64,000 nt of DNA. Source: a virus. This document shows positions 7,573-62,217 of the stretch, piece after piece; the first letter of the stretch is position 1, and each line of letters begins with the position of its first letter. The stretch lies in IMG/VR virus record IMGVR_UViG_3300008050_007409; one strand, written 5' to 3'. The translations under genes and the position numbers were made by a program. Below the pieces are notes generated by a model that saw only the letters and a program-made list of their open reading frames with translations, did not search any database and was not told the DNA's origin.

Positions 7573-8246
7573 ACCACGCTCCCGGTCACCACACCAGCTG
7601 CCGCCGAAGGCGACGCCCCTCCAACGTAAGGCACGGAGGACGTCAGCGTCGAGAGGCCCAGGGCGTAGGCGTCTGCATAGTAGGGGATCGACGCCGCGAG
7701 GTCCGCATTGATCGGTGTTCCCGGCACGTCCTCCTGACCGAAGACCCCCGTGGCCTGCAGAGCAGCAGGGAGGGTCGTCAGCAGGCTGCCCAGCGCGGTG
7801 GCGTAGATGTCTGGGTTCGAGGCGATCACGAAGACCGCTGTCCCGGTACCCACCGTCGTGGACGTGTCCCCCTGCAGGAGGGCCAGGGCCGGGATGTTGA
7901 AGAGCATGTTCTGGATGACGGACTGGGCGAACAGCGCCGAGCTCGCCCCGACCCAGGCCGAGGAGGCCAGGAAGGCGGCCGCGGCTGACGGAGCTCCAGG
8001 CAGGGTGAAGGCGAAGGGCGCGGCTGTACCTCCGGGAGCGGCTGTGCCGGAGATCGCGCCCTTCCACTTGAGCGTCGAGATGGTGGTGGCCAGGCCGCTG
8101 GCCAGTCCCTCGATCAGCTTCTGAGCTGGGTTGTGGGTCACGACCCCGGTGGCGGCGTTGCTCCTCATGGCGACCGCAGCGGTGGGGAAGAGTGCGACGT
8201 GGCCGGTGAAGGTCAGATCGGCCAGGCCTGACCCTGTCAGAGGCAT
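7569..8246 (-). CDS. Ala/Gly-rich hypothetical structural protein
   Basis: 225-aa ORF coupled directly downstream of the spike gene. Confidence 0.7.
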   Translation of the reverse strand: MPLTGSGLADLTFTGHVALFPTAAVAMRSNAATGVVTHNPAQKLIEGLASGLATTISTLKWKGAISGTAAPGGTAAPFAFTLPGAPSAAAAFLASSAWVGASSALFAQSVIQNMLFNIPALALLQGDTSTTVGTGTAVFVIASNPDIYATALGSLLTTLPAALQATGVFGQEDVPGTPINADLAASIPYYADAYALGLSTLTSSVPYVGGASPSAAAGVVTGSVV

Positions 8247-9814
8247 CAGAGGCTCTCACTGACGAATGTTGAGGGCAGAGCCACGGGGCTCGGGATGCCG
8301 CTGGCGCCGACTGAGCTCGCTCCCAGGATGGGAGCACCCGTCACGTAGTCGACGGGGTGGGTGAGGGTGGTGACGACTGCGCCGGCGGCGCCCGCCATGC
8401 CCATGAAGACTGTCCCAAGCTGGTCGATCGAAATCTCCCCAGCCGCTGTGGTGATCTGGATTCCAGTGGCGTTGATCTCCACCTTGGACAACTCGCCGAG
8501 CATGTTCTCCAAGAAGATGGCTCCGGTAGGGGAGATCCGAATCTCTCCGAAGGGGGCCAGCTTCGTGAGCCCCATCGTGATGCGGAGGTCGCTGGTGATT
8601 CCGTGGATGCCGATCTCACCTTGGTTGCAGGTGAGCTGGTAGCCCACATCCTCGCCGGAGAGCCAGTTGGCGTTGGTGATCGTGACCTCCTTCTTCCCGC
8701 TGATGATCTCCTTCGTGTTCCCTCCGACCTTCTCTCGGTAGTCGGCACCGGCGGTGATCTGAGCTGTGCCCGTGGCGACCTCCGCCAGGTCTCCGTTGAC
8801 TGTCCTCTCGACTGCGCCCTTGATCTCTTCAGTGAGCCTGCCCGTGGTCCTGGTGACGGGTCCGCTGATCGTCTCCGTCAGGCTGCCGTTCACCGAAACC
8901 GCCCTGTCCGTACCCACGCTGAGGGAGTCGGACCTGTGCACGACCACGTTCCTGGAGCCGTAGTCGACGGAGCTGATGCCTCGAACCTGCTGGAAGAAGT
9001 CCGCAGCGATGAACTCGATCTTCTTCCCCTCCAGGTTGACGAACTCGCCTCCGCCCTGGATCCTCTGGCAGTTGCCGTCCTTGTCGATCCAGACCTGGTA
9101 GTTGTTGTTGATCAGCAGACGGCCGACGATCTGGCCGTTGCTGCCGTTGATGACCGCCTGGGCGTCCTCGTCAGAGATACGACCCAGCCCCAGGTCGATC
9201 ATGGGGTCCTCGTCGGAGAACTCCTTGACCTGCAGCCGGAACTCGACCGGGTCCTTTCCCGAGCCGTGGGAGTCGTCGCTGGTCCTGGACTTCCACTCGA
9301 GCTTGCCGCCGGCGGCGTTCTGCTCCCAGTTCGAGAAGAACTCCCGGATGGTGTCCTGCAGAGGGAGGTAGATCCTCTGGCTCATCTGCGTGGAGCCGAT
9401 CTCCAAAGAGCCGCCCTTGCGCAGGATGATGAAGGGGTTGGACCCCGGCCCGGAGATCATCTGATCGCCCTGACCGAGCACCGGCCTGTTCATCCGGTGG
9501 TCGTTGGGGTCCTCCTCGTCGTCCGCGTCGTCGAGCTGCCTGGGGAGGCTGGCGCCGGCCATGATGAAGGGGGCCTTCTGGTCGCTGGGGCGGCAGAGCC
9601 AGACGGGCGTGTTGACCTCCGGCATGAAGAAGTTGCCCTGGCCGTCCGCCCCCACGTTCATGGGGTTGATCGGGACGCCCTCGTGGACGCAGTTGTCCGG
9701 CGTCACCACCGTGCACGTGTAGGAGGTGTTGTTCACCTCCTGGATCATCCCCATCGTCACCTTGGACTGGTGCTGGTGGATGTTCGTGGATCCCTGGAAT
9801 CGCCTCTTCCACAT
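8246..9814 (-). CDS. Baseplate central spike / hub protein (gp5/GpV/VgrG-like)
   Basis: N-terminal OB-fold signature (GQGNFFMPEVNTPVWL), then beta-helix repeats (VGTDRAVSVNGSLTETISG, VNGDLAEVATG, VGGNTKEIISG) and a C-terminal tip-like THPVDYVTGAP. Confidence 0.78.
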   Translation of the reverse strand: MWKRRFQGSTNIHQHQSKVTMGMIQEVNNTSYTCTVVTPDNCVHEGVPINPMNVGADGQGNFFMPEVNTPVWLCRPSDQKAPFIMAGASLPRQLDDADDEEDPNDHRMNRPVLGQGDQMISGPGSNPFIILRKGGSLEIGSTQMSQRIYLPLQDTIREFFSNWEQNAAGGKLEWKSRTSDDSHGSGKDPVEFRLQVKEFSDEDPMIDLGLGRISDEDAQAVINGSNGQIVGRLLINNNYQVWIDKDGNCQRIQGGGEFVNLEGKKIEFIAADFFQQVRGISSVDYGSRNVVVHRSDSLSVGTDRAVSVNGSLTETISGPVTRTTGRLTEEIKGAVERTVNGDLAEVATGTAQITAGADYREKVGGNTKEIISGKKEVTITNANWLSGEDVGYQLTCNQGEIGIHGITSDLRITMGLTKLAPFGEIRISPTGAIFLENMLGELSKVEINATGIQITTAAGEISIDQLGTVFMGMAGAAGAVVTTLTHPVDYVTGAPILGASSVGASGIPSPVALPSTFVSESL

Positions 9815-12800
9815 CAGTACTGCCCTGCCCAGTCCTTCCCGAGTACCTCCTCACCCTTGCCGAATTCGGAGGCATGCGCCGCCGCGGGGATCGGATGGTA
9901 GCCGTGGATGTCGCTCTTCCAGCCCTCTCGTACCGCACGCTCCATGGTGTCGTTGAGCTTCTGGAAGTTCAAGCGTGCCATCCAGTCCTCCTGCATGGCC
10001 AGCGGCATCTGCCCGACACCCTTGAGGGTGGGCGTGTATCGCACGTCCTTCTTGGACGGACCGGACACGTCGTTCCAGTGCTTGATCTCACTGATGCGTC
10101 GGAAGTCACCCGGCGACCAGTCCGGGTTGTCCCCAGGGTCGTCGACCTCCGCCAGGTTGGTGATGGCGCGGACGATGACCTCGATGTTGCGGCGCTTCAC
10201 CTTGGCCGCGTTGTTGTGCAGGACGCTCTCGATCTCGTCCGACATCAGGTCCTGCACGTCCTCGACGTCGCGGAGCTCCAGGAGCTTCCGGGGATCGACC
10301 ACGCCATCCGAGAGCGCGTCGCCCTTCCGGACCTCCTGTCCACGGCGCACCATGAGCTCGTGATCACCTCGGACGTAGTGCTTCTTCCCTCCGATCTCCA
10401 CATCCCAGCCGCCCTGGGGAGCTTGCCGGACCGTGGACACCTTCCCGCCCCTCTCAGCCAGCGGGGCCGAGTCCGGGAGGTTCTTGGGCAGCGTCAGGAG
10501 GTTGTTCAGGGTCTGGAAGGTGTTCGCGGAGCGGGCTGACCGGCCCTTGGCGATGCCTCCGGTGTGGAAGGTGTTGAGGCTGAGCTGGACGCTGGGCTCT
10601 CCCACGGCCTGACCGGCGATGACGCCGATGTTGGTGCCGATGTCCGACTCCTTCCCCATCTCGTTGAGGCCCAGGCACTTCTGGCACACCCCGTTCTTGG
10701 CCCGGCACCGGAGGGGAGAGCGGACGGGGAGGTCGGACCTCTTCGACTTGCGGGCAGCGGCGACCACGCTGGGCGTGACCATCGACCCGGCCTTGTGGAC
10801 CTTGCCGTCGAGCTTCACTGAGGTGGAGAGGTAGCGGTCGACCAGGTCCCTGTTGTCCAGGTCCAGCTTGATCCCCGCGGTGGTCCCGCAGTCGCCCTTG
10901 GAGACGACCTGGTCCATCGTGGTGTTGTTGATCCGCTTGGACAGGTAGCCGGGGTCGCGGACGCCCTGCACCTTCTGCACAGCGCCCTTCCGAGCTCCGT
11001 GCATCGTGGTCCAGTAGGAGCCCAGGTCCATGCCCTCCGAGTAGCTCCGGTCGATCATGAACGGGACCACCCGGCTCTTGGCGTCCATCACCAGCGCAGG
11101 GGTGCTGATGATCTGCTTGAGCTGCTCAGGCTTCCCTCGGGATCCGGAGATCACCATCTCGTAGATGTTGGTGGGGTTGTCCCTGAGCGCCAGATCGCTG
11201 AGCCTGTCGATCTCGTCGTCCACCTTCTGCAGGTGAGCGATGGCCTTCGCCTTGCCCTTCTTCTTGTCCTTGGTCGTGGACCGGATCCGGTCGGCCTCGC
11301 GCTGAGCCCCGTCGATCATCTTGTCTCGCTGGGACTTGTTGACCACCTGGAAGTCGTCCAGGCCGATGGAGAAGCCGATCTCGTAGCTGTGGTCGTTGCC
11401 GATGTCCTTGAAGCGGTTGGAGACCTCGGCGTAGAGGTCCGGGTGGTTCTTGGCGATGTCGGCCAGGATGGTCTTGGTCCCACCCTTGTCCATCAGCCGC
11501 ATCTTGCCGACAGGCTTCTTCCCGGTCTCACGCATCTCGGCAGGGAGCACGGCCTCGATCTCCAGACGACCCAGGGTGGTCGGGTCTCCACCCACCTTGA
11601 TCTGGTCTGTGAGCTTGATCTTGCCCTGCATCTTGGCCCGCCGGGCGTCGTGCATGTCCTTGAAGGCGTGGGAGGTCTTCCTGCCCGGCTTGCTCGCCAG
11701 GTACATCCCCAGGAGGGCTTCATGCCCTGGGGTATACATGACGGATCCGTCGGTCGGGTTGAACAGGTTGTTCGAGGGGAACATCTGCGTCGCCTCCCGA
11801 GCCGCCTTGCTGGTGACCGGCAGGTAGACGCTCATGGCGTCGCCGTCGAAGTCGGCGTTGTAGCCGGACGTGACCAGCGGGTGGATCTCCAGGGCGTTGC
11901 CCTTCACGATCCGAGGCTTGAAGGCCATGACGTTGAACTTGTGCAGCGACGGGTCCCGCTTGAGCAGGATCGGCCGGTCCTTCATGACCCGCTCGAGGGT
12001 CTTCTGGGCGGGCACGGACTTCTTGTTGATGGCCTCCCTGGCATCCAGTGGGTTCCAGTTCATCCGGACGAGCTCGCGCTGGACGTAGGGCGCGTAGAGG
12101 CCCCAGGCGATCTTCTCGGGGACGCCCAGCTCGTCGATGCCCTGGTGGGGCTCAGGGATGATGATGGACCGGCCCGAGTAGGCCTGCCGCCTCTTGATCA
12201 GCGTCTTCTGGAAGTAGCCGTTCTTGGACCGCCCCTTGCGGGAGCCGTCCTTGCTCTTGGTCTGCCCGGAGATGATGTCCAGGACACCGCGGTACTCGCG
12301 GGTGAGGCTGGGCCCGTTGCCGTTGAGCGCCGAGAGCGCGTCGTAGACGGCGACCCGGTCCTCGGCCAGGCCGTACGACGGGATCCCAGCCTTCTTGGCG
12401 TCGGTCATGGTCTGGTTGACCGTGCCCAGGTCCTTGTAGAGGTAGTTCAGATCCGTGTTGGAGAGGGAGCCGTCGTCGTTGACCACCGGCGGGCGGAAGA
12501 CGGGGGGCAGGACCGGGACCGCCCGCATCATGTAGATCGAGGGGTCGAGGTTGTTGTCCTCGAGCATCTTGAAGACGCGGAGCCGCTTGTGGACCTTGGA
12601 GCGCGACCCGGCCTTCAGGCGCTTGGCCCGCTCCTCCAGCTCTGCTCGCTCCTTCTTCACGTCGACCTGCTTGAGCATCTCCTCGAAGGCGGCGCCGCCG
12701 ACCTTGCCGTTGACCTTGACCTCCCCGGCCAGGATCTTGCGGTAGCGGGTCTTGTCGATGTCGAGGACCTTCTGGACGGCCTCCTCGAACAGGGGGTTGG

Positions 12801-15800
12801 GGAGGGGCTCCGCGAGCTCGATGTGGCTCCACTTCGTGCCGTTGAGTCCCCCGGTGGTGGCCGGGTCGAAGATCCCTCCCACCTCCGGCTTGATGTCCTT
12901 CCCCATGACGGCGCGGTTGGGCTTCGTGAGCTTGCCCGAGCTCATCTTGCGGACCTGGGCCTCCGTGAAGGGCATCAGGGAGATCTGCGACCCCTCCTTC
13001 ACGGGGTTCACCCGCATGGAGCGGAGGTAGTTCTCGAACTTGTCGTAGGCGAAGGGGACCTTGGCCGGAGGGATCCGCTTGTTGTCCCGGATGGCGTCCC
13101 AGAGCGCGTCGTTGCGCGTGCTCTTGTAGGCGTACATCTCGTGGAGGTTGTCGCGGGCGCCGTGGGCCAGCATGGCGTAGAGCCCCAGCTCGCCCAGGGA
13201 CTGACCGCCGTGCGGAGCTCCTCCTGTCGGGGCGTGGTGCACGTCCCACCCAGCTCCGGGGTCTCCGGACCTGACGGCGATCTTCTTGCCCGCCTGGTGC
13301 TTGAGCTTCACGATGTACTGGCGGCCGGTCAGCACGTCCTGATCGAAGGGCTTCCCCGTCTTGGGGTTGATCAAGGACTCCTTGTCCGTGAGCCCCAGGG
13401 CTGCCAGGTCCTTCTTGACCATGGCGAGGTAGTCGGTGTCGCCGTCGAAGTTCCTGACCCGGTAGGTCTCGCCGGTCTTCTCTGCGACCTTGCCGGCCGC
13501 GGTCTCCAGGACCTGACCCAGGTTGATGCGCCCAGGCACGCCCAGAGGGTTCAGGGCGATCTCGACGTGCTTGTTCTCGCCGTCCTCGTCCATGAACGGC
13601 ATCTCCGCATCCGGGACGATGCGGGTGATCACGCCCTTGTTTCCGTGTCGGCCGACGAGCTTGTCTCCGATCTGCGCAGGCTCCTCGGTCTTCACGTAGA
13701 CCATGATGCTGCCGTCGCTGCGGCGCACCACGTCGCTGACCACTCCGGGGTAGGGCTTGTCCCAGGTCATCGAGCGGTTCCGGAACTTCCTGCTCCGCCC
13801 GCGCCGGAACTCTCGGATGTCCTTGAGCTGCTGGCTGGGCGTCGGCGGCTTGAGCACCAGTACCAGCGGGTCACCCTCGACGACCTTGGAACCGATCTTG
13901 ATCCGTCCATCGTCGTCGATGCTGGCCAGCTGATCCTTGTCGAAGTCGCTGGGGTACTGAGACAAGAACTTCTTCCGCTCGGTGATCGCCAGCTTGTCCA
14001 GGCGTGCCTGGTTCGGGTGCACGTGGAGCGAGGTCAGCTTCTTCGCCGCCGTCTCGCTGATGACGATCCCATCCTCGAAGTTGTAGCCCTGGAACGGGAT
14101 GTAGGCGGCCCGGAGGTTGGTGCCCAGGGCCAGGGTACCGTCCTTGGTGAAGGTGGAGTCGACGAGGAGGTCCCCCTCCGCGACCTTGTCTCCGGCCTTG
14201 ACCTTGACCTCGGAGTCGTAGAGCGAGCCGCCCGGCAGGGCGAAGTCCCGGTAAAACTGGACCTCGTGCTTCTTCCCCTTGCGGTCCTTGATGATCACCG
14301 CGTCCTTCCGGACCTGGTCGACGGTGCCTGCGATCGGTGCCTTCCGCGCCGAGTACTCTCCGAAGATCTCCTCGAACGACTGGTCGCCGTCTGTCTGCAC
14401 CTGGACCAGGGGAGCCTCCCGCTCCTTCAGAGGCACGGCCTGCTCCGCCTGCTTGGCGGCAGTCATGGCCCGGTTGCCCTGGTTGTTCTGCAGGAAGGGC
14501 ACCAGGTTCGAGCTCACCCCGAACACAGCCCGCGGGCTGGGGAGGATGTAGTCGACCTCCTTGGGGCTCACGTAGGTGATCTCCCCATCCCGGAGTGCCT
14601 TGACCCGCTTCCCACGAGCCTTGCGCCCCTTGTACTGGTCCGGGAAGGAGATCACCTTTCCAGCGGTGTCCGCCGGCGACAGCTTCTCGGTCCTGCCGGT
14701 CCTGGCGTTCTTGAAGCGGGAGACGACGGTGTCGCCCTTCTTCTCCGTGCCGAGGGCCAGGGACAGGGTGATGCCCGTCTTGTCGCCCTCCGGCGTCCTC
14801 ACGGGGTCCAGGAAGCCGAACTGGCTGGCGTTCAGGAGCTTGGCCTCGTCCAGGACGGCGAAGGGGTTGGCGATGCCTCCCTGCTCTCCTAGGATGGTCG
14901 TGGCGGTCTGCCCGGCCAGCATCCCGAGCGGGTTGGTCTGGTCCGGCTCGTTGGCGAGGCTCTGGCTGAAGAACTTCTTGATCGACGGCGTGACGGTCCC
15001 GGAGGGGACCACCTTCTTCAGATTGCGCCGCTTGTCGATGTTCCACCGGATCTTCCGCTGGATGGTCGAGGCGTCCCTCCGGATGCGTCCTGAGATCAGG
15101 TCCTCAGCCGCGTTGACCGACTGGAATTCCATCGAGGACTTGTTGTCCGGCTCGCGGTCGCCGCGGGAGATGGACAGGAGCTGCTTCGAGGATTCGATCA
15201 GCGTGTCACCGTCCACGCTCTTGAAGCCCTTGCCCAGGGTCCGCTTGGTGGTCTGCTGGTCGACTTCCGTGCGGGCCAGGTGCTCGGCGAACAGGCCGGC
15301 GTGCTCGGCGGGGTTCTCCGGCAGAGATCCGTGCACGGCCTTGTAGAACTTGCCGTAGACCCGCTCGGGCTTGGAGTAGCGCTTGTTGCGCTCGAGCAGC
15401 TTCTTCCCCCAGGCGCGCTCCAGGGCATCGTCGGAGACGCCCGCCGACTTGAGCAGGGGGTAGGCCGCCATCTTCGAGGTGCCGACGTGCACCAGGAACA
15501 GCGCTCGCTTCGGATCAAACTCCATCTTGAAGGAGCGGCCGCGCCTCCCCTCCTGTCCGGTGAGGGCCTCGTGGTTCCCGAGGTTGAACTCCGCGTAGAG
15601 CTTGTCGTCTCGGCTCCTCCGGTGGTAGACGCCGGGCCGGAGACGGAGCTGGTTGAAGATCTGGTACTCGCTGCCCTTGTGGATGTAGCCGAATCGGTCT
15701 GTAGTCCGGGGGAGGTGCCCGACGATCACCTTCTTCCTGTCGATCTCCTTCATGTCGCCGTCACGGCCCTTCCGCATCAGGGACATGTCCGCGTAGATCG

Positions 15801-15996
15801 GCACCTGCCAGGACTTCCCGCTTCGGATGGCCTTCTGCTGGTCCCGCAGGTCGGAGGCACTCTTGGTGTCCCTCACCTCGACGGAGTGGACCACCAGCTT
15901 GGAGTTCTTGGTCTCAACCTGGAGCGCCTCCTCGACAGCCTCCGAGACCTTCGCGGAGAGCGCCTCGAACTGCTGATCCGGATTGAGGTGGGGCAT
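9814..15996 (-). CDS. DNA-directed RNA polymerase, beta and beta' fused in one 2060-aa polypeptide
   Basis: Beta motifs: DQTNPL, RTPEG, GYNFEDGI, GDKLVGRHGNKGVI, NPLGVPGRINLGQ, GGQSLGE. Beta' motifs: YSGRSII, KRDPSLH, YNADFDGD, SGSRG, GARKG..DPGYL, GEPSVQL..TFHTGG. No internal stop. Confidence 0.96.
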   Translation of the reverse strand: MPHLNPDQQFEALSAKVSEAVEEALQVETKNSKLVVHSVEVRDTKSASDLRDQQKAIRSGKSWQVPIYADMSLMRKGRDGDMKEIDRKKVIVGHLPRTTDRFGYIHKGSEYQIFNQLRLRPGVYHRRSRDDKLYAEFNLGNHEALTGQEGRRGRSFKMEFDPKRALFLVHVGTSKMAAYPLLKSAGVSDDALERAWGKKLLERNKRYSKPERVYGKFYKAVHGSLPENPAEHAGLFAEHLARTEVDQQTTKRTLGKGFKSVDGDTLIESSKQLLSISRGDREPDNKSSMEFQSVNAAEDLISGRIRRDASTIQRKIRWNIDKRRNLKKVVPSGTVTPSIKKFFSQSLANEPDQTNPLGMLAGQTATTILGEQGGIANPFAVLDEAKLLNASQFGFLDPVRTPEGDKTGITLSLALGTEKKGDTVVSRFKNARTGRTEKLSPADTAGKVISFPDQYKGRKARGKRVKALRDGEITYVSPKEVDYILPSPRAVFGVSSNLVPFLQNNQGNRAMTAAKQAEQAVPLKEREAPLVQVQTDGDQSFEEIFGEYSARKAPIAGTVDQVRKDAVIIKDRKGKKHEVQFYRDFALPGGSLYDSEVKVKAGDKVAEGDLLVDSTFTKDGTLALGTNLRAAYIPFQGYNFEDGIVISETAAKKLTSLHVHPNQARLDKLAITERKKFLSQYPSDFDKDQLASIDDDGRIKIGSKVVEGDPLVLVLKPPTPSQQLKDIREFRRGRSRKFRNRSMTWDKPYPGVVSDVVRRSDGSIMVYVKTEEPAQIGDKLVGRHGNKGVITRIVPDAEMPFMDEDGENKHVEIALNPLGVPGRINLGQVLETAAGKVAEKTGETYRVRNFDGDTDYLAMVKKDLAALGLTDKESLINPKTGKPFDQDVLTGRQYIVKLKHQAGKKIAVRSGDPGAGWDVHHAPTGGAPHGGQSLGELGLYAMLAHGARDNLHEMYAYKSTRNDALWDAIRDNKRIPPAKVPFAYDKFENYLRSMRVNPVKEGSQISLMPFTEAQVRKMSSGKLTKPNRAVMGKDIKPEVGGIFDPATTGGLNGTKWSHIELAEPLPNPLFEEAVQKVLDIDKTRYRKILAGEVKVNGKVGGAAFEEMLKQVDVKKERAELEERAKRLKAGSRSKVHKRLRVFKMLEDNNLDPSIYMMRAVPVLPPVFRPPVVNDDGSLSNTDLNYLYKDLGTVNQTMTDAKKAGIPSYGLAEDRVAVYDALSALNGNGPSLTREYRGVLDIISGQTKSKDGSRKGRSKNGYFQKTLIKRRQAYSGRSIIIPEPHQGIDELGVPEKIAWGLYAPYVQRELVRMNWNPLDAREAINKKSVPAQKTLERVMKDRPILLKRDPSLHKFNVMAFKPRIVKGNALEIHPLVTSGYNADFDGDAMSVYLPVTSKAAREATQMFPSNNLFNPTDGSVMYTPGHEALLGMYLASKPGRKTSHAFKDMHDARRAKMQGKIKLTDQIKVGGDPTTLGRLEIEAVLPAEMRETGKKPVGKMRLMDKGGTKTILADIAKNHPDLYAEVSNRFKDIGNDHSYEIGFSIGLDDFQVVNKSQRDKMIDGAQREADRIRSTTKDKKKGKAKAIAHLQKVDDEIDRLSDLALRDNPTNIYEMVISGSRGKPEQLKQIISTPALVMDAKSRVVPFMIDRSYSEGMDLGSYWTTMHGARKGAVQKVQGVRDPGYLSKRINNTTMDQVVSKGDCGTTAGIKLDLDNRDLVDRYLSTSVKLDGKVHKAGSMVTPSVVAAARKSKRSDLPVRSPLRCRAKNGVCQKCLGLNEMGKESDIGTNIGVIAGQAVGEPSVQLSLNTFHTGGIAKGRSARSANTFQTLNNLLTLPKNLPDSAPLAERGGKVSTVRQAPQGGWDVEIGGKKHYVRGDHELMVRRGQEVRKGDALSDGVVDPRKLLELRDVEDVQDLMSDEIESVLHNNAAKVKRRNIEVIVRAITNLAEVDDPGDNPDWSPGDFRRISEIKHWNDVSGPSKKDVRYTPTLKGVGQMPLAMQEDWMARLNFQKLNDTMERAVREGWKSDIHGYHPIPAAAHASEFGKGEEVLGKDWAGQY

Positions 15997-16028
15997 GTTG
16001 ATCCAGAGAAGAGGGTGCCGTCATTCTG

Positions 16029-16037
16029 GCATAAGAG
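16029..16037 (+). promoter_or_regulatory. Candidate phage promoter element GCATAAGAG
   Basis: AT-rich word at a divergent junction, also found at 21479 and 37470. Confidence 0.4.
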
Positions 16038-16066
16038 CCATGAAAGTAACCTGGAGGAAGAAGCCT

Positions 16067-16198
16067 ATGGGCAAGGACAAGGACCCCCGCGAGGAGTCCA
16101 AGAAGCGTTTCGGCAAGCTCAACGACCGGATCACCAAGAACCTGTACCCCGACAAGGACGACAGGGACAAGGACGACAAGGACAAGGGCGGCCGATGA
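16067..16198 (+). CDS. Small highly charged protein (43 aa)
   Basis: GGAGG RBS upstream of ATG 16067; reads MGKDKDPREESKKRF...; typical codon usage. Confidence 0.6.
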   Translation: MGKDKDPREESKKRFGKLNDRITKNLYPDKDDRDKDDKDKGGR

Positions 16199-16257: not shown

Positions 16258-18177
16258 TCAGATCCCCGCGCCACCTGCGCGACGTGGAGGACGCTGCTCT
16301 GGGAGCGGCTGCTGCTCCAAGGCGGTCATGACCGCCATCTTCTGCTGGACCAGCTCAGAGAGCCTCGGGCTCTGCTGCGCCATGTTCTGCAGGTAGCCGG
16401 CCCTCTCCTGGTCCGGCATCCGCGAAAGCCTCTTCGCGAGGGCCTCAGCGTAATCGATGAGGTTGACCCCGCCGCCCTGAGGCGGCTGACCGGCTGCGGG
16501 GTTTCCTTCGGGTGTAGGTCCGGGCTGCGCGGCCATCCCCTGCGGGTGCTGCATGCCAGGCATGCCACCCTTCTCCTGCATCTTCTTCTGGGCCTCCTGC
16601 ATCTTCTTCTGGGCTTCGATCTGGTACTTGGTCTGGATCTGCTGCATCTCGCCCTGGATCTCAGCCTTGTAGAGCGAGTCGAGCTTGGCCACCTCGAGGT
16701 TGCGCCTGAGCTCCGTCTCGATGAGCCTCGTCTCGTCCAGGGCGTCCTTGTCGAACTCGGACAGCAGGGTCTTGTCGCTGATCTTCTTGAGCTGGTTGAG
16801 GCTCATGAGCAGCTGCTTGGACTGGAGGTCATCCGCCATCTTGAAGGCCTTCATGTGGGCCTTGGGCTGCTTCCAGGACATGAAGCGGGCGATGTTGGGC
16901 AGCAGGAAGTGGTTGAGGAAGCGGTGGTGCTCCTCCCGGTAGTTCAGGAACCGGTTCTCCAGCATCCGGAGGGTCACGCTCGACCCGGTCCAGCTCATGC
17001 CTCCGAAGACGAACTCCTGCGGAGCTCCCATGCCGGTGATGATGTGCTCAGACCAGACCCGGATCTCCTGGGTCGGCATGAGGGACCGGCCGTCGCCGCC
17101 GATGCGAGTGTGCCCGATGGGCAGCGGCATGATCGGCTTGTAGTTCGGGTCCTGCCGCCAGCGCTTCAGCTCCACCTCGACCCGACGCTTCCAGTCGGAC
17201 AGGTTGACCATCGTGTACGGGCTGGCGTTCGGATCCTGTGTCGAGGGGAACAGAACGTCGAGCGGGACCAGGTGCTCGAGCATGACGGCCTCGTTGGCCT
17301 TCTTGAGCACCTGCAGGTAGAAGCTGTCCTTCAAGGCCGGCAGGATCGGCGGGTAGGCCCAACCGGAGTCGTTGTCCTGCACCGAGGGCGTCGGCGCCTT
17401 GAAGTGGTAGAGGTTCCGCTCGACGAGCTCGATCGGGCGGCGAGTCTTCATCGCCTTGATGAAGGAGTCCGGCATCTCCTCGAGGTAGTGCCGGTGCTTG
17501 GTCAGAACCCGCTTCCTGATCCGCGCCGGGATGTTGTAGTAGTACCGGGTCCGCTGGGTGATCGGGTTGAAGTCGATGTCGACGTCAGACGGGTTCCACC
17601 GCAGGAGCTTGATGTCCCGGTAGGAGTGGTACCACTTGTCGTCGACCTTGGCGGGGCCGTTGTGGAAGCACGTCGGGCAGTTCAGCGTGTACTTCCAGCT
17701 GGAGAAGTCCCACTGGACCTTGAACTTCAGCCTCTTGATCCGCTTGCTGAATCCGCAGTTCCTGCACGTCAGGTACTTGTGGAACGGGTAGACGATCGAC
17801 ACCAGGCAGTTGCCGTAGGCGTGGTAGTCGAGGCCGGCCTCGACCTGGAAGCGGTGGATGTCCAGGACGTTGTAGAGGAGGTCCTCCCACCGCTTCTTCT
17901 GGTGATCGAAGCCCTCTCGCTCGTCGTAGTCGAGGATCACCCGCGTGATCGGGTACTCCGCCATCTTGCGGATCACCGCACTGATCAGCGGGTTGGCCAG
18001 GGCGTGGTAGCGGCACCACCGGAACAGGTGCTTGACCGTGCTCGGCAGGTCCATGTGCGCCACGTCCCACCAGGGGGACGGGTAGCGGAAGTTGGACGTG
18101 CGCCCGTCCAAGTTCCCATGCTTGTAGCCTGAGAACCTGAAAGAGCTGCCTGGTCCGAACGTGCCGCCGAGAGCCAT
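16258..18177 (-). CDS. Portal protein with zinc-ribbon insertion
   Basis: 639 aa with portal-like segments (NPLISAVIRKMAEYP; IITGMGAPQEFVFGG..WTGSSV), a CRNC...CPTC insertion and a Q/P/G-rich C-terminus. Confidence 0.75.
   Translation of the reverse strand: MALGGTFGPGSSFRFSGYKHGNLDGRTSNFRYPSPWWDVAHMDLPSTVKHLFRWCRYHALANPLISAVIRKMAEYPITRVILDYDEREGFDHQKKRWEDLLYNVLDIHRFQVEAGLDYHAYGNCLVSIVYPFHKYLTCRNCGFSKRIKRLKFKVQWDFSSWKYTLNCPTCFHNGPAKVDDKWYHSYRDIKLLRWNPSDVDIDFNPITQRTRYYYNIPARIRKRVLTKHRHYLEEMPDSFIKAMKTRRPIELVERNLYHFKAPTPSVQDNDSGWAYPPILPALKDSFYLQVLKKANEAVMLEHLVPLDVLFPSTQDPNASPYTMVNLSDWKRRVEVELKRWRQDPNYKPIMPLPIGHTRIGGDGRSLMPTQEIRVWSEHIITGMGAPQEFVFGGMSWTGSSVTLRMLENRFLNYREEHHRFLNHFLLPNIARFMSWKQPKAHMKAFKMADDLQSKQLLMSLNQLKKISDKTLLSEFDKDALDETRLIETELRRNLEVAKLDSLYKAEIQGEMQQIQTKYQIEAQKKMQEAQKKMQEKGGMPGMQHPQGMAAQPGPTPEGNPAAGQPPQGGGVNLIDYAEALAKRLSRMPDQERAGYLQNMAQQSPRLSELVQQKMAVMTALEQQPLPEQRPPRRAGGAGI
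16573..16614. repeat. 21-bp tandem duplication within the portal gene (AQKKMQE x2)
   Basis: ctcctgcatcttcttctgggc repeated twice. Confidence 0.8.
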
Positions 18178-33105: not shown

Positions 33106-33374
33106 GGCGGCTCATCCTGGGCGCAGCGGCCCTCTTCGCGCTGGTCCTCCACCCCCTCCGGACGCTCAAGTCCGTGATCCAGGGAGCTCGGGAGGGCTGG
33201 CGCCGAGGGGTGGCCGGTGAGCCGAAAGAGCAGATGCCCTCCATGCGGGGGCACGTGGTGGACGTGGAGATCGCTCCTCGGAAGCCCTCCCACCGAACCT
33301 ACGGGTTCAGCCACCAGATCATCGAAGTAGGAGAGACCAGTGCCCTCGCAGTCCGCAACGAAGAAGGCCCGTAA
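33102..33374 (+). CDS. Small protein with N-terminal hydrophobic segment
   Basis: GTGA overlap; reads [18 protein letters not shown]... Confidence 0.5.
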
Positions 33375-34386
33375 GAGGGGCGAGAAGCAAGCCCTCGGCG
33401 ACCCCGAGAAGGTCATCGCTGACCTGATCAGCACCATCAACTCGAAGGGGGACGGCCAGATCGGCACGGTCCGAGGGAAGCACGGCATCAAGGCCGAGGT
33501 CTCCGGAGCTGTCCCTTCCGGCTCCATCGGTCTGGACAAGGCCATCGGCGTGGGCGGCTACCCGGCCGGTCGTGTCATCGAGATCTACGGCCCCGAGTCC
33601 AGCGGCAAGACCACCCTGGCCCTGCACGCCATCGCCAAGGCGCAGGAGATGGGCAAGGTCGCCGCGTTCATCGACGCTGAGCACGCGCTCGACTCCGAGT
33701 ACGCGGCAGCCCTGGGCGTCGACCTCGAGCACCTCCTCCTCTCCCAGCCCGACTGTGGAGAAGACGCGCTGCAGGTGGTAGACGACCTGATCCGCACCAA
33801 CAAGGTCGGCATCATCGTCATCGACTCTGTGGCGGCGCTCGTGCCCAAGGCCGAGCTCGAGGGCGACATGGGCGACTCGCTGCCGGGCCTCCAGGCCCGG
33901 CTGATGTCCCAGGCGCTGCGGAAGATCACGGGCGCCATCAGCAGGAGCGACTGCGTGGTGATCTTCATCAACCAGATCCGCTACAAGATCGGCGTCAAGT
34001 TCGGCTCCCCCGAGACCACCAGCGGAGGCAACTCGCTGAAGTTCTACGCCTCGGTCCGTCTGGACATCCGCCGCATCGGCTCCGTGAAGAAGGGCGAAGA
34101 CCTCACGGGCAACCGCACCCGCGTCAAGGTGGTGAAGAACAAGGTCTCCCCGCCCTTCAAGAAGGTGGAGTTCGACATCGCCTTCGGCATCGGCATCGAC
34201 GAGGCCGGCGAGCTGCTGGACATGGGCATCGACAACGGCACCCTGGTCCGCTCCGGCTCCTGGTACTACGACGGTCCCAAGTCGGACGGGAAGGCGGTCG
34301 GCCAGGGTCGAGATCGAGCCAAGAGGAACATCCTCGAGGACCTCGACCTCTACAACCGGCTGAGGGCGGCGGCGCTCGATGGCTGA
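33340..34386 (+). CDS. recA: Recombinase RecA
   Basis: [76 protein letters not shown]. Confidence 0.97.
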
Positions 34387-61268: not shown

Positions 61269-61468
61269 CAGACATCCACTCCCAACGTGGCGAGGTAGTC
61301 GTTGGCCTCGTCTATGGCCTGCTGGGTGGTGTTCTCGCTGGCCTCCGTCGACGCGGTCTTGATGCGCTGGAGCTGCTCGACCCGTGAGTCGACCTCGGCG
61401 CACTTGGCGTCGAAGACCTCCTTGACCGCGTCCTTGACCGCCTGAGCCTGAGTCGCCACGTCGCTCAT
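61268..61468 (-). CDS. Small coiled-coil protein
   Basis: 66-aa ORF coupled to the sigma gene. Confidence 0.6.
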   Translation of the reverse strand: MSDVATQAQAVKDAVKEVFDAKCAEVDSRVEQLQRIKTASTEASENTTQQAIDEANDYLATLGVDV

Positions 61469-62217
61469 GTCAGACCTCGCTTCTTCATCTTGTCGTCGAT
61501 GCTCTTGCGGAGCCGGCTCACCTTCGGGCCCGAGACGTTCATCCGCCTGGCGATATCCTTGGCCGGGAGCTTGGGCTTGCCGTTGACGCCCAGGGTGTAC
61601 TCGTAGACCACGCGCTCCTGCATGGTCAGATCATGGTAGATGTAGCGCAGGATGTCCCGCTCCTCGCTCTCGAACAACGAGGGAAGCTGATCAGGCTCCG
61701 GCGTCATGGAGGCGATCCGGTCCTGGCGGAGCTCGGTCTCCATGCGACCCACCTCGGCCACGCTCCAGGTGTACTTCGGGTTGTGGGCCTGCAGCGCCTC
61801 CGACAGGGTTACAGCGTCCGGAGGATGGCCGAGCTGTTCGGTCAGATCCGCCCTGACTTCCTTGAAGGGGGTGATCTGGAGGGCACGGCCTTCGGGGATC
61901 CGCCCGAAGTTCTGGTGCTCGATGGTGAAGGACCGGAGCTTGCGCAGCTGCCAGTTCACCCAGGTGCGCACTCCGGCGCCCTTCTCGTTGTCCGGGTCGT
62001 AGGTCTGGAGACCCTTGAGGGCCAGCATCCGACCCTTGGATCGAAGCGCCTGCTCCGGGACCACGAAGTTCTTGGTCTTCGAGAACTCGCTGACCTTCCA
62101 GTCGACGTCCGGCTCGAACTCCTTCAGGAGAGGCTCGAGGTTCGCCTCCGTCGGATCTGCTTGCCAGGTCTTCCAGAGTTCGAGCTGCCTCTCCGCATCT
62201 GGATTGCGGCGAGCCAT
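61465..62217 (-). CDS. Sigma-70 family RNA polymerase sigma factor
   Basis: Region 2: GRMLALKGLQTYDP..G..TWVNWQL...RIP. Region 3: LTEQLGHPP. Region 4 HTH: LTMQERVV...DIARRMNVSGPKVSRL. Confidence 0.85.
   Translation of the reverse strand: MARRNPDAERQLELWKTWQADPTEANLEPLLKEFEPDVDWKVSEFSKTKNFVVPEQALRSKGRMLALKGLQTYDPDNEKGAGVRTWVNWQLRKLRSFTIEHQNFGRIPEGRALQITPFKEVRADLTEQLGHPPDAVTLSEALQAHNPKYTWSVAEVGRMETELRQDRIASMTPEPDQLPSLFESEERDILRYIYHDLTMQERVVYEYTLGVNGKPKLPAKDIARRMNVSGPKVSRLRKSIDDKMKKRGLT

What the first reader, a model, noticed from the sequence alone, without database searches (positions are those of the whole stretch)
9814..15996. Single-polypeptide beta-beta' RNA polymerase in a phage
Seen: one 2060-aa ORF holds bacterial-like beta motifs in order, followed directly by beta' motifs. 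At the junction (about 12950-13070) the beta C-terminal helix (VPFAYDKFENYLRSM) joins the beta' N-terminus (ISLMPFTEAQVRKMS) through only a few residues. It is several hundred residues shorter than typical cellular beta plus beta'. Known: phiKZ/AR9-type phage RNAPs are split into several subunits, and cellular fusions exist in Helicobacter and Wolbachia. No alpha or omega subunit gene is visible here. Inference: a minimal and possibly alpha-independent enzyme.
Basis: partly seen in the sequence, partly recalled or inferred. Interest (0 to 1): 0.8.

Follow-up and report, generated by a model that had tools for sequence, protein, structure and literature searches.

The report
Single-chain phage RNA polymerase (fused beta-beta')
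An uncultured large phage encodes both big subunits of a bacterial-type RNA polymerase as one slimmed 2060-residue protein among its particle genes. Hundreds of related phages share this design, together with their own sigma factor and no alpha or omega subunit, so the enzyme probably travels in the virus particle and starts transcription without the host's polymerase.

Summary
Window 9814-15996 (minus strand) is one 2060-aa ORF with beta domains followed directly by beta' domains, and all catalytic motifs are intact.

- **Not an assembly error.** 66 of 85 related IMG/VR loci carry the same uninterrupted ORF, and residues at the junction are conserved.
- **Not a captured host gene.** Each half, treed separately, places all the phage sequences opposite 19 bacteria from many phyla.
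- **What is missing.** Compared with columns shared by most bacteria, the clade lacks only about 112 positions. These are the beta' zinc ribbon, the termini at the junction and a few loops.
- **Partners.** Five complete relatives (178-198 kb) each have one RNAP gene and a sigma-like gene, and no detectable alpha or omega. A complex model places the sigma-like protein on the beta' clamp helices.
- **Context.** The gene lies between portal and spike genes, as in Salmonella phage Arash, where the homologous RNAP and sigma were detected in virions.

Best reading: a virion-carried, sigma-directed, probably alpha-independent RNAP. Packaging and alpha-independence are inferred, not shown.

I found no paper describing the full fusion. 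The published mReC phage RNAPs are listed as separate beta and beta' genes. This scan has already reported the same family on other genomes. Verdict: new variant of a known kind.

The parts
9814..15996 (-). Single ORF, 2060 aa: fused beta-beta' RNA polymerase (P0001). Its stop, in TGATG, overlaps the start of the next gene by one base.
12988..15996 (-). Beta-like half, residues 1 to about 1003. It includes the catalytic GDK...GRHGNKG motif (residues 777-788, window 13633-13668) and a flap-tip-like helix (about residues 720-732, window 13801-13839).
   Evidence: Aligns to E. coli beta 81-249, 405-931 and 1050-1336. AF2 model pLDDT 85.6, pTM 0.80. Foldseek TM 0.75-0.77 to Thermus and cyanobacterial beta. 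Motif invariant in the family.
12967..13017 (-). Junction, residues 994-1010: the end of beta runs directly into the first beta' strand with no linker.
   Evidence: Alignment block. G1002 and P1009 are invariant in 46 fused homologs. Bacterial beta C-tail and beta' 1-17 are absent.
9817..12987 (-). Beta'-like half, residues 1004-2060. It has NADFDGD at residues 1380-1386 (window 11839-11859), a bridge helix, a trigger loop without an SI3 insertion, and a retained second Zn site (C1703/C1764/C1771/C1774, window 10675-10890).
   Evidence: Aligns to E. coli beta' 175-939 and 1195-1346. AF2 pLDDT 87.9, pTM 0.84. Foldseek TM 0.84-0.87 to Firmicutes beta'. Invariant columns.
12814..12870 (-). Site where the beta' N-terminal zinc ribbon (E. 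coli beta' 66-99, four Cys) is deleted. A few residues remain between FDP..TGG and WSHIEL.
   Evidence: The deletion is shared by all phage rows, including Arash and D69.
12301..12444 (-). Beta' clamp helices, residues about 1185-1232: the predicted docking site of the phage sigma-like protein.
   Evidence: Helical hairpin in the AF2 model. Interface residues from complex prediction. Aligns to about E. coli beta' 267-314.
16258..18177 (-). Portal protein gene immediately upstream of the RNAP gene.
   Evidence: 29% identity, E=1e-83 to Arash portal gp204. A portal homolog lies upstream of the RNAP in 59 of 73 loci with enough flank.
8246..9814 (-). gp5-like baseplate spike gene; its start overlaps the RNAP stop.
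   Evidence: Weak Gp5_C / phrog_430 hits. TGATG overlap. A homolog lies downstream of the RNAP in 45 of 70 loci.
61465..62217 (-). Divergent sigma-70-family factor (P0132, 250 aa) lying among virion-type genes: the presumed partner of the RNAP.
   Evidence: Homologous to Arash sigma gp10 (hhalign 99.7%). Homologs carry Pfam Sigma70_r3/r4. Present in 5 of 5 complete relatives. Complex model.

Best explanation
The ORF encodes the complete catalytic core of a bacterial-type RNA polymerase as one polypeptide. It is the hallmark gene of a very large, mostly uncultured clade of phages with genomes of about 165-200 kb. The cultured relatives are Salmonella phage Arash and Vibrio phages D69, D148 and D181.

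Shown:
- The active-site motifs, both double-psi-barrel halves, the bridge helix, the trigger loop and the clamp helices are intact and conserved.
- The fusion itself is conserved.
- The clade lies outside the sampled bacteria.
- It is the only RNAP gene in complete relatives.
- A sigma-70-family gene always accompanies it.
- No alpha or omega homolog is detectable.

Inferred mechanism:
- The enzyme is made late from the portal-RNAP-spike operon and packed into the capsid.
- It is injected with the DNA and, guided by the phage sigma docked on the beta' clamp helices, transcribes phage genes independently of host RNAP.
- The covalent beta-beta' link replaces the alpha-dimer assembly platform, so one ejected chain can refold into an active enzyme without finding partner subunits.
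- Loss of the beta' zinc ribbon probably changes contacts at the RNA exit and with termination or antitermination factors.
For: **Intact enzyme.** Pfam and NCBIfam domain order is as expected. NADFDGD, GDK..GRHGNKG and the second Zn site are invariant in 15 and in 46 homologs. The AF2 halves have pLDDT 85.6 and 87.9 and match solved bacterial beta and beta'.

**Conserved fusion.** 66 of 85 loci have the full single ORF.

**Separate clade.** Bacteria versus phages is a 100-support split in both half-trees. No close relative occurs in one genome per GTDB species.

**Partners.** In five complete genomes there is one RNAP gene each and a sigma-like gene in 5 of 5. PF01000, PF03118 and PF01192 each score 0 of 5, with positive controls working.

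**Sigma identity.** Pairwise E=6e-14 and hhalign 99.7% to Arash gp10. Homologs carry Sigma70_r3/r4.

**Docking.** Complex prediction score 0.70, best of 3 controls 0.00. This mark was reached by 58 of 80 solved complexes and 2 of 110 mismatched pairs. The runs agree in at least 37% of their contacts and the partner's pLDDT is at least 66. The interface is on the clamp helices. Sigma-RNAP complexes are solved, so this pass may reflect likeness to them rather than show that this copy binds.

**Packaging.** The portal-RNAP-spike order is conserved and the RNAP stop overlaps the spike start. In Arash virions Gp206 had the most spectra, and Gp216 and sigma Gp10 were also detected (PMC10585845).
Against: - No virion data exist for this phage or for any fully fused member.
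- The Arash authors themselves note that abundant enzymes might co-purify with particles.
- P0132 itself reaches no Pfam or NCBIfam cut-off.
- Alpha-independence rests on absence of homologs. Host alpha could be recruited. From memory, not checked here, artificially tethered E. coli beta-beta' was still reported to assemble with alpha.
- An earlier scan note reports a stand-alone alpha-CTD-like gene elsewhere in this genome. I could not reach it.
- The trees used LG+G4 with a short search and no archaeal outgroup. The site-heterogeneous run did not finish.
- The beta half superposes with rmsd 10-11 A, as might be expected for a half modelled alone.
Confidence: 0.6

Rival explanations
1. Non-packaged RNAP. 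The enzyme is active but only works inside the infected cell, for example on middle or late genes after host RNAP has made it. Its position among particle genes then reflects timing only.
For: It is the only RNAP gene in complete genomes and sits in a late-type operon, so it might simply be a late-gene polymerase. The Arash authors allow that abundant enzymes may contaminate particles. An earlier scan note (unchecked) reports a sigma-70-like promoter ahead of the helicase gene in the replication block.
Against: Tight, conserved linkage to portal and spike in most loci. In Arash the RNAP subunit had the highest spectral count of all particle proteins, with sigma at 100% coverage. The sigma gene also lies among virion genes in both phages.
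Confidence: 0.2
2. Hybrid enzyme. The fused chain needs the host alpha dimer, and perhaps omega, to assemble or to respond to regulators, so it is not self-sufficient.
For: All cellular beta-beta' fusions known to me (Helicobacter, Wolbachia; from memory) keep alpha. The fold of both halves is fully bacterial, so alpha-contact surfaces may persist. An earlier scan note mentions a stand-alone alpha-CTD-like gene in this genome (unverified).
Against: No alpha-NTD, alpha-CTD or omega homolog in five complete relatives or four fragments. No alpha is mentioned in the virion-proteome passages of the Arash paper that I read. Identity to any bacterial beta or beta' is only 25-31%, which makes conserved docking of many different hosts' alpha less likely.
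Confidence: 0.2
3. Recently captured host rpoB-rpoC operon, or a mis-assembled or mis-binned bacterial gene, whose stop codon was lost.
For: Domain order and motifs are those of bacterial rpoBC. Real bacterial fusions exist, for example the Paceibacterota contig L091.
Against: Both halves branch outside 19 bacteria with 100 support. The best bacterial identity is about 30%. The fusion recurs in 66 independent loci at 31-56% identity to this protein by tblastn. The flanks are phage genes.
Confidence: 0.02

Closest known systems
RNAP of Salmonella phage Arash (Gp206 + Gp216, with sigma Gp10; PMC10585845) and of Vibrio phages D69, D148 and D181
   Same: Homologous over the whole length at 28-29% identity. 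The portal gene lies just upstream. The sigma partner is homologous. The zinc ribbon is deleted in the same way. The beta/beta' junction is fused.
   Different: There the chain is cut at about residue 1468 into beta + beta' N-half (1525 aa) and a separate beta' C-half (about 610 aa). Here, and in most environmental relatives, it is one chain. The published paper annotates 'beta' and 'beta'' and does not mention any fusion. Split forms are not one group in the beta' tree.
mReC: multimeric-RNAP-encoding Caudovirales (Weinheimer & Aylward 2020, PMC7481178)
   Same: Uncultured tailed phages with beta and beta' recognisable by cellular HMMs. They are compact (beta about 1000 aa, beta' about 900 aa in many) and branch outside cellular lineages.
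   Different: Every RNAP listed in the supplementary rows I read (one part of 14, plus spot look-ups) is two separate proteins, and some genomes hold two sets. The paper uses 'fused' only for crAssphage. I could not test whether the fused clade is sister to mReC or lies inside it, because no mReC sequence was in hand.
phiKZ / AR9-type jumbo-phage multisubunit RNAPs
   Same: Phage-encoded two-barrel RNAPs without alpha or omega. One set is packaged in virions (PMC7598289).
   Different: Those are split into 4-5 polypeptides, come as two paralogous sets, have no sigma-70-type factor and are far more divergent. PHROG hits to them score E=1e-26 at best, against 1e-115 for the best PHROG family, which has no assigned function. 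Here there is one chain, one gene and a sigma-family partner.
Cellular beta-beta' fusions (Helicobacter and Wolbachia rpoBC; NCBIfam NF007172 and NF011417; also the Paceibacterota contig L091)
   Same: Same head-to-tail join of the beta C-terminus to the beta' N-terminus.
   Different: Those nest within bacteria (L091 groups with Parcubacteria), are about 2300-2900 aa and keep the zinc ribbon. By common knowledge they work with alpha and omega. The phage protein scores 510 bits against a cut-off of 5372.
Single-polypeptide virion RNAPs of N4-like and crAss-like phages
   Same: Functional analogy: one giant chain carried in the particle and ejected to start early transcription (abstracts listed).
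   Different: Different protein families: T7-like for N4, and a highly divergent two-barrel enzyme for crAss. Neither has readily recognisable sequence homology to bacterial beta/beta' (for crAss), and I know of no sigma-70-type partner for either.

Membership tests
Two-barrel multisubunit RNAP superfamily (bacterial beta/beta' type) | beta' NADFDGD Mg-binding loop and beta barrel lysines (GDK...GRHGNKG) | tested here: met
   Present at residues 1380-1386 and 777-788 and invariant in homologs.
Two-barrel multisubunit RNAP superfamily (bacterial beta/beta' type) | Overall fold of beta and beta', including bridge helix, trigger loop and clamp helices | tested here: met
   AF2 models with pTM 0.80 and 0.84. 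Foldseek E=1e-71 and 1e-67, TM 0.75-0.87 to solved bacterial chains.
Bacterial rpoB / rpoC equivalogs (NCBIfam TIGR02013, NF001616, TIGR02386) | Score above the curated cut-off | tested here: not met
   388 versus 896, 355 versus 801 and 500 versus 964 bits.
Bacterial rpoB / rpoC equivalogs (NCBIfam TIGR02013, NF001616, TIGR02386) | beta' N-terminal four-Cys zinc ribbon | tested here: not met
   The 32 columns equivalent to E. coli beta' 66-99 are absent in all phage rows.
Cellular fused rpoBC (NF007172 / NF011417) | Single ORF beta-beta' | tested here: met
Cellular fused rpoBC (NF007172 / NF011417) | Curated score, and placement inside bacteria | tested here: not met
   510 versus 5372 bits. 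The phage clade lies opposite all bacteria in both half-trees.
phiKZ/AR9-type phage RNAP | beta and beta' split into 4-5 polypeptides, in two paralogous sets (virion and non-virion) | tested here: not met
   One ORF here, and one RNAP gene per complete genome in relatives.
phiKZ/AR9-type phage RNAP | No alpha or omega homolog | tested here: met
   PF01000, PF01193, PF03118 and PF01192 found nothing in relatives, with positive controls working. Nothing in the window.
mReC phage RNAP (PMC7481178) | Phage beta/beta' recognisable by cellular HMMs and branching outside cellular clades | tested here: met
   Only bacteria were sampled; no archaeal or eukaryal outgroup was included.
mReC phage RNAP (PMC7481178) | beta and beta' as separate genes, and a shared T4-like MCP / TerL lineage | tested here: not met
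   Fused here, whereas all supplementary rows I read list two proteins. MCP/TerL kinship was not tested, because neither gene was recognised in this window.
Arash-type virion RNAP | Homology, portal adjacency and a gp10-type sigma partner | tested here: met
Arash-type virion RNAP | Presence of the enzyme in purified particles | not testable with these tools
   Shown only for Arash by mass spectrometry.
Sigma-70 family (for partner P0132) | Recognisable regions 2, 3 and 4 | tested here: inconclusive
   P0132 has no Pfam hit and only sub-threshold NCBIfam sigma hits. Homologs at 26-55% identity carry Sigma70_r3/r4. The model docks residues 24-68 on the clamp helices as sigma region 2 does.

The most novel reading that the evidence does not exclude
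This is a naturally self-sufficient, single-chain bacterial-type RNA polymerase core. It has no alpha assembly platform, no omega and no zinc ribbon. It is packaged in the capsid with its own sigma, is ejected through the tail and refolds alone. That would make it the smallest known sigma-dependent cellular-type RNAP and the transcription engine of a huge unstudied phage clade.
Probability: 0.4. Interest if true: 0.8.

Novelty: new variant of a known kind. Interest (0 to 1): 0.62.

Why it matters
According to the Sokolova review, all cellular multisubunit RNAPs contain alpha-type assembly subunits (PMC7598289). The only known exceptions, the phiKZ/AR9-type enzymes, are highly diverged and split into many pieces.

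This enzyme is still alignable residue by residue with bacterial beta and beta', and it pairs with a sigma-70-family factor. If it works as one chain without alpha and omega, three things follow:
- It shows what the alpha platform is really needed for.
- It offers a compact, genetically simple RNAP-plus-sigma pair for structural work and for orthogonal transcription.
- It explains how a very abundant clade of roughly 165-200 kb phages starts infection independently of the host enzyme. At least 551 IMG/VR stretches encode a relative.

The family also shows fusion and fission of RNAP subunits within one lineage: fully fused, cut at about residue 1468, and interrupted by inteins. That bears on how RNAP subunit architectures evolve.

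Tried and rejected
- **The look-up of encoding contigs was closed.** I could not walk to the rest of the 165-kb contig or verify the alpha-CTD-like gene that an earlier scan note reports about 30 kb before the window.
- **Full-length tree did not finish.** The tree under the site-heterogeneous model (47 rows x 1866 columns) did not finish in two 300-s runs. I replaced it with per-half LG+G4 quick trees.
- **No nucleotide relatives in cultured phages.** DNA-level search of the phage collection found only one 258-bp match.
- **No prophage or host clue.** No close relative exists in one genome per GTDB species.
- **Apparent unfused relative L065.** It is really fused. All four in-frame stops are TGA, one of them at the conserved W63 column.
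- **Sigma-70 promoter scan around the gene:** 0 sites.
- **Capsid-targeting tag.** I checked by eye whether the RNAP N-terminus carries the tag noted on other virion proteins of this genome (F-x-x-E-L-x-K-I-A). Residues 10-18 match at only 3 of 6 defined positions, and the family consensus does not keep them. Rejected.
- **Literature.** Nine searches found no description of a fully fused phage beta-beta'.
- **Alpha-binding surfaces** could not be assessed, because no coordinates of solved complexes are available to scripts.
Full report
**Observation.** The window has one uninterrupted ORF on the minus strand, 9814-15996, of 2060 aa. Pfam places Rpb2 domains 3, 6 and 7 at residues 353-960 and Rpb1 domains 1-5 at residues 1109-1956.

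BLASTP against E. coli beta aligns residues 52-216, 236-756 and 764-997 to beta 81-249, 405-931 and 1050-1336. BLASTP against beta' aligns residues 1094-1814 and 1880-2032 to beta' 175-939 and 1195-1346. The stretches skipped in E. coli correspond, from my knowledge of its lineage-specific insertions, to beta SI1 and SI2 and beta' SI3.

In a 47-row alignment the end of beta runs straight into the first beta' strand. The bacterial beta C-tail and beta' residues 1-17 are missing, and so is the four-Cys zinc ribbon (E. coli beta' 66-99). The catalytic motifs are present and invariant among homologs: NADFDGD at 1380-1386, GDK..GRHGNKG at 777-788, and the second zinc site at C1703/C1764/C1771/C1774.

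**Context.** GC content is about 64% throughout. The window is from a phage.
- A plus-strand replication block at 22-39 kb holds a helicase, DnaB, primase, PolA, RecA and a Cas4-like nuclease.
- Two minus-strand blocks of mostly unannotated genes include Baseplate_J, Ig-like domains and a gp5-like spike.
- The gene upstream of the RNAP (16258-18177) is homologous to the portal protein of Salmonella phage Arash (29% identity, E=1e-83).
- The RNAP stop overlaps the start of the spike-like gene in TGATG.

**Not an artefact, and not rare.**
- A protein search returned more than 120 clusters of about 2035-2080 aa at 40-81% identity from independent metagenomes. Some are 2400-2800 aa and carry intein or LAGLIDADG domains. 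The query's own contig is 165,236 bp.
- A scan of IMG/VR found at least 551 stretches encoding relatives.
- Of the 85 loci fetched, 66 have the full single ORF (median 2096 aa), 7 are cut at about residue 1468, 10 run off a contig end and 2 are odd cases.
- One odd case, L065, is really fused but has four in-frame TGA codons, one of them at a conserved Trp column.
- A portal homolog lies upstream in 59 of 73 loci with enough flank. A spike homolog lies downstream in 45 of 70.

**Relatives in culture.** tblastn against 50,697 phage records gives Vibrio phages D69, D181 and D148 and Salmonella phage Arash as best hits, at 28-29% identity. In these phages a 1525-1546-aa protein covers beta plus the N-terminal half of beta', and a separate protein of about 610 aa covers the rest. 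The portal gene again lies just upstream.

The Arash paper reports that Gp206 gave the most spectra of any particle protein. It also reports that Gp216 and the sigma factor Gp10 were in the particles. The authors allow that abundant enzymes might co-purify (PMC10585845).

**Phylogeny of both halves.** I built separate trees for the beta half (896 columns) and the beta' half (828 columns), with 28 phage rows and 19 bacterial rows from many phyla. In both trees all bacteria fall on one side of a branch with SH-aLRT 100 and all phage sequences fall on the other. The window's nearest neighbours are the same loci in both trees.

A fused 2284-aa gene on a Paceibacterota contig (L091) groups with Parcubacteria, so it is a cellular fusion and not a relative. 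Bacterial identities to the query are only 25-31%. No close relative exists in one genome per GTDB species.

Limits: the model was LG+G4 with a short search and no archaeal outgroup. The site-heterogeneous run did not finish.

**How minimal is it?** I looked for columns filled in at least 75% of bacteria but in at most 15% of phage rows. They total 112: beta 19-39, beta 1040-1047, the beta C-tail plus beta' 1-17, beta' 66-99, beta' 830-838 and the beta' C-tail. The rest of the size difference is the absence of lineage-specific insertions.

AlphaFold models of each half, built on 46-row alignments, are confident (pLDDT 85.6 and 87.9; pTM 0.80 and 0.84). They match solved bacterial beta (TM 0.75-0.77) and beta' (TM 0.84-0.87).

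**Partners.** I examined five complete relatives of 178-198 kb (three with direct terminal repeats; CheckV completeness 91-100%).
- Each has a single RNAP gene.
- Each has a homolog of window protein P0132, encoded at 61465-62217.
- None has a match to alpha-NTD, alpha-CTD or omega HMMs, although the controls rang in 10-14 reference genomes. Four fragmentary relatives also had none.

P0132 itself has no Pfam hit and only sub-threshold sigma hits in NCBIfam. It is nevertheless homologous to Arash sigma Gp10 (E=6e-14; hhalign 99.7%). Many of its 40 homolog clusters carry Sigma70_r3 or r4.

A complex prediction of beta' residues 1004-1425 with P0132 scored 0.70, with the best of 3 controls at 0.00. 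This mark was reached by 58 of 80 solved complexes and 2 of 110 mismatched pairs. The runs agree in at least 37% of their contacts and the partner's pLDDT is at least 66. The interface is residues 1185-1232, a helical hairpin aligning with about E. coli beta' 267-314, which I know as the clamp helices. It touches sigma residues 24-68. Sigma-RNAP complexes are solved, so this pass shows likeness to them rather than independent proof.

**Interpretation.**
- Shown: an intact, conserved, single-chain bacterial-type RNAP core that is specific to a large phage clade, with a conserved sigma-family companion and no detectable alpha or omega.
- Inferred: it is packaged and injected, from gene position and the Arash proteome. 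It is directed by the phage sigma. The covalent link stands in for the alpha platform.
- Rivals: an intracellular-only polymerase, and a hybrid enzyme with host alpha.

**Comparison with the literature.** The Sokolova review notes that phiKZ/AR9 enzymes lack alpha and are split. It cites a metagenomic group of RNAP-encoding phages (PMC7598289). That study, on mReC (PMC7481178), lists beta and beta' as separate proteins of about 900-1500 aa in every supplementary row I read. Some genomes there carry two sets. The word 'fused' is used only for crAssphage. The jumbo-phage overviews I searched do not mention such a fusion. Nine literature searches found no description of a fully fused phage beta-beta'.

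This scan has already reported the same family on other genomes with the same reading. The case is therefore a new architectural variant of a known kind, and it is not unique to this window.

Noticed in passing
L065:10001-15952 (IMGVR_UViG_3300000172_000001): The homologous RNAP gene has four in-frame stops, all TGA, in a 35% GC contig. One falls on the nearly invariant Trp63 column. This looks like a phage that reads TGA as Trp (code 4-like), and the gene is fused there too.
   Followed up: partly
L091:163-7014 (DATJQA010000074.1, Candidatus Paceibacterota MAG): A 2284-aa single ORF fuses beta and beta' in a CPR bacterium. It keeps the zinc ribbon and groups with Parcubacteria in both trees, so it is a cellular beta-beta' fusion outside Helicobacter and Wolbachia.
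   Followed up: partly
Proteins P0059, P0090, P0098, P0101, P0102, P0114, P0116; loci L036, L045, L055, L057, L063, L067, L077, L078, L081: Many family members are 2390-2890 aa. The listed proteins carry intein or LAGLIDADG / homing-endonuclease Pfam domains inside the RNAP. Vibrio phages D181 and D148 have a homing endonuclease gene inside the RNAP region.
   Followed up: no
window 15983-16198 (+): A small opposite-strand ORF (71 aa, rich in Lys and Asp, hydrophobic at its end, preceded by GGAGGA) lies in the 261-bp gap between the portal and RNAP genes. The RNAP may therefore have its own promoter. Arash has a small same-strand gene at this position.
   Followed up: no
L061, L062, L088 versus L001, L002: The forms cut at about residue 1468 do not form one group in the beta' tree. 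In the beta tree they do form one group, with weak support (79). The cut, or the re-fusion, may therefore have happened more than once.
   Followed up: partly
window 33340-34386 (+): The RecA homolog is unusually close to cellular RecA (Pfam RecA E=9e-117, plus RecA_C). It might help to guess the host.
   Followed up: no
L090:8119-11502 (Rhizobium phage RHph_TM30): Cultured T4-like rhizobiophages (Kleczkowskaviridae) carry a stand-alone 1127-aa beta' homolog next to a family A DNA polymerase gene. It is only 26% identical to the beta' half here. Its beta partner was not looked for.
   Followed up: no
about 30.5 kb before the window start (outside the window): Earlier scan notes report a stand-alone alpha-CTD-like gene in this genome. 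I could not reach it. PF03118 found nothing in nine relatives, so it is not a conserved partner of the RNAP.
   Followed up: partly
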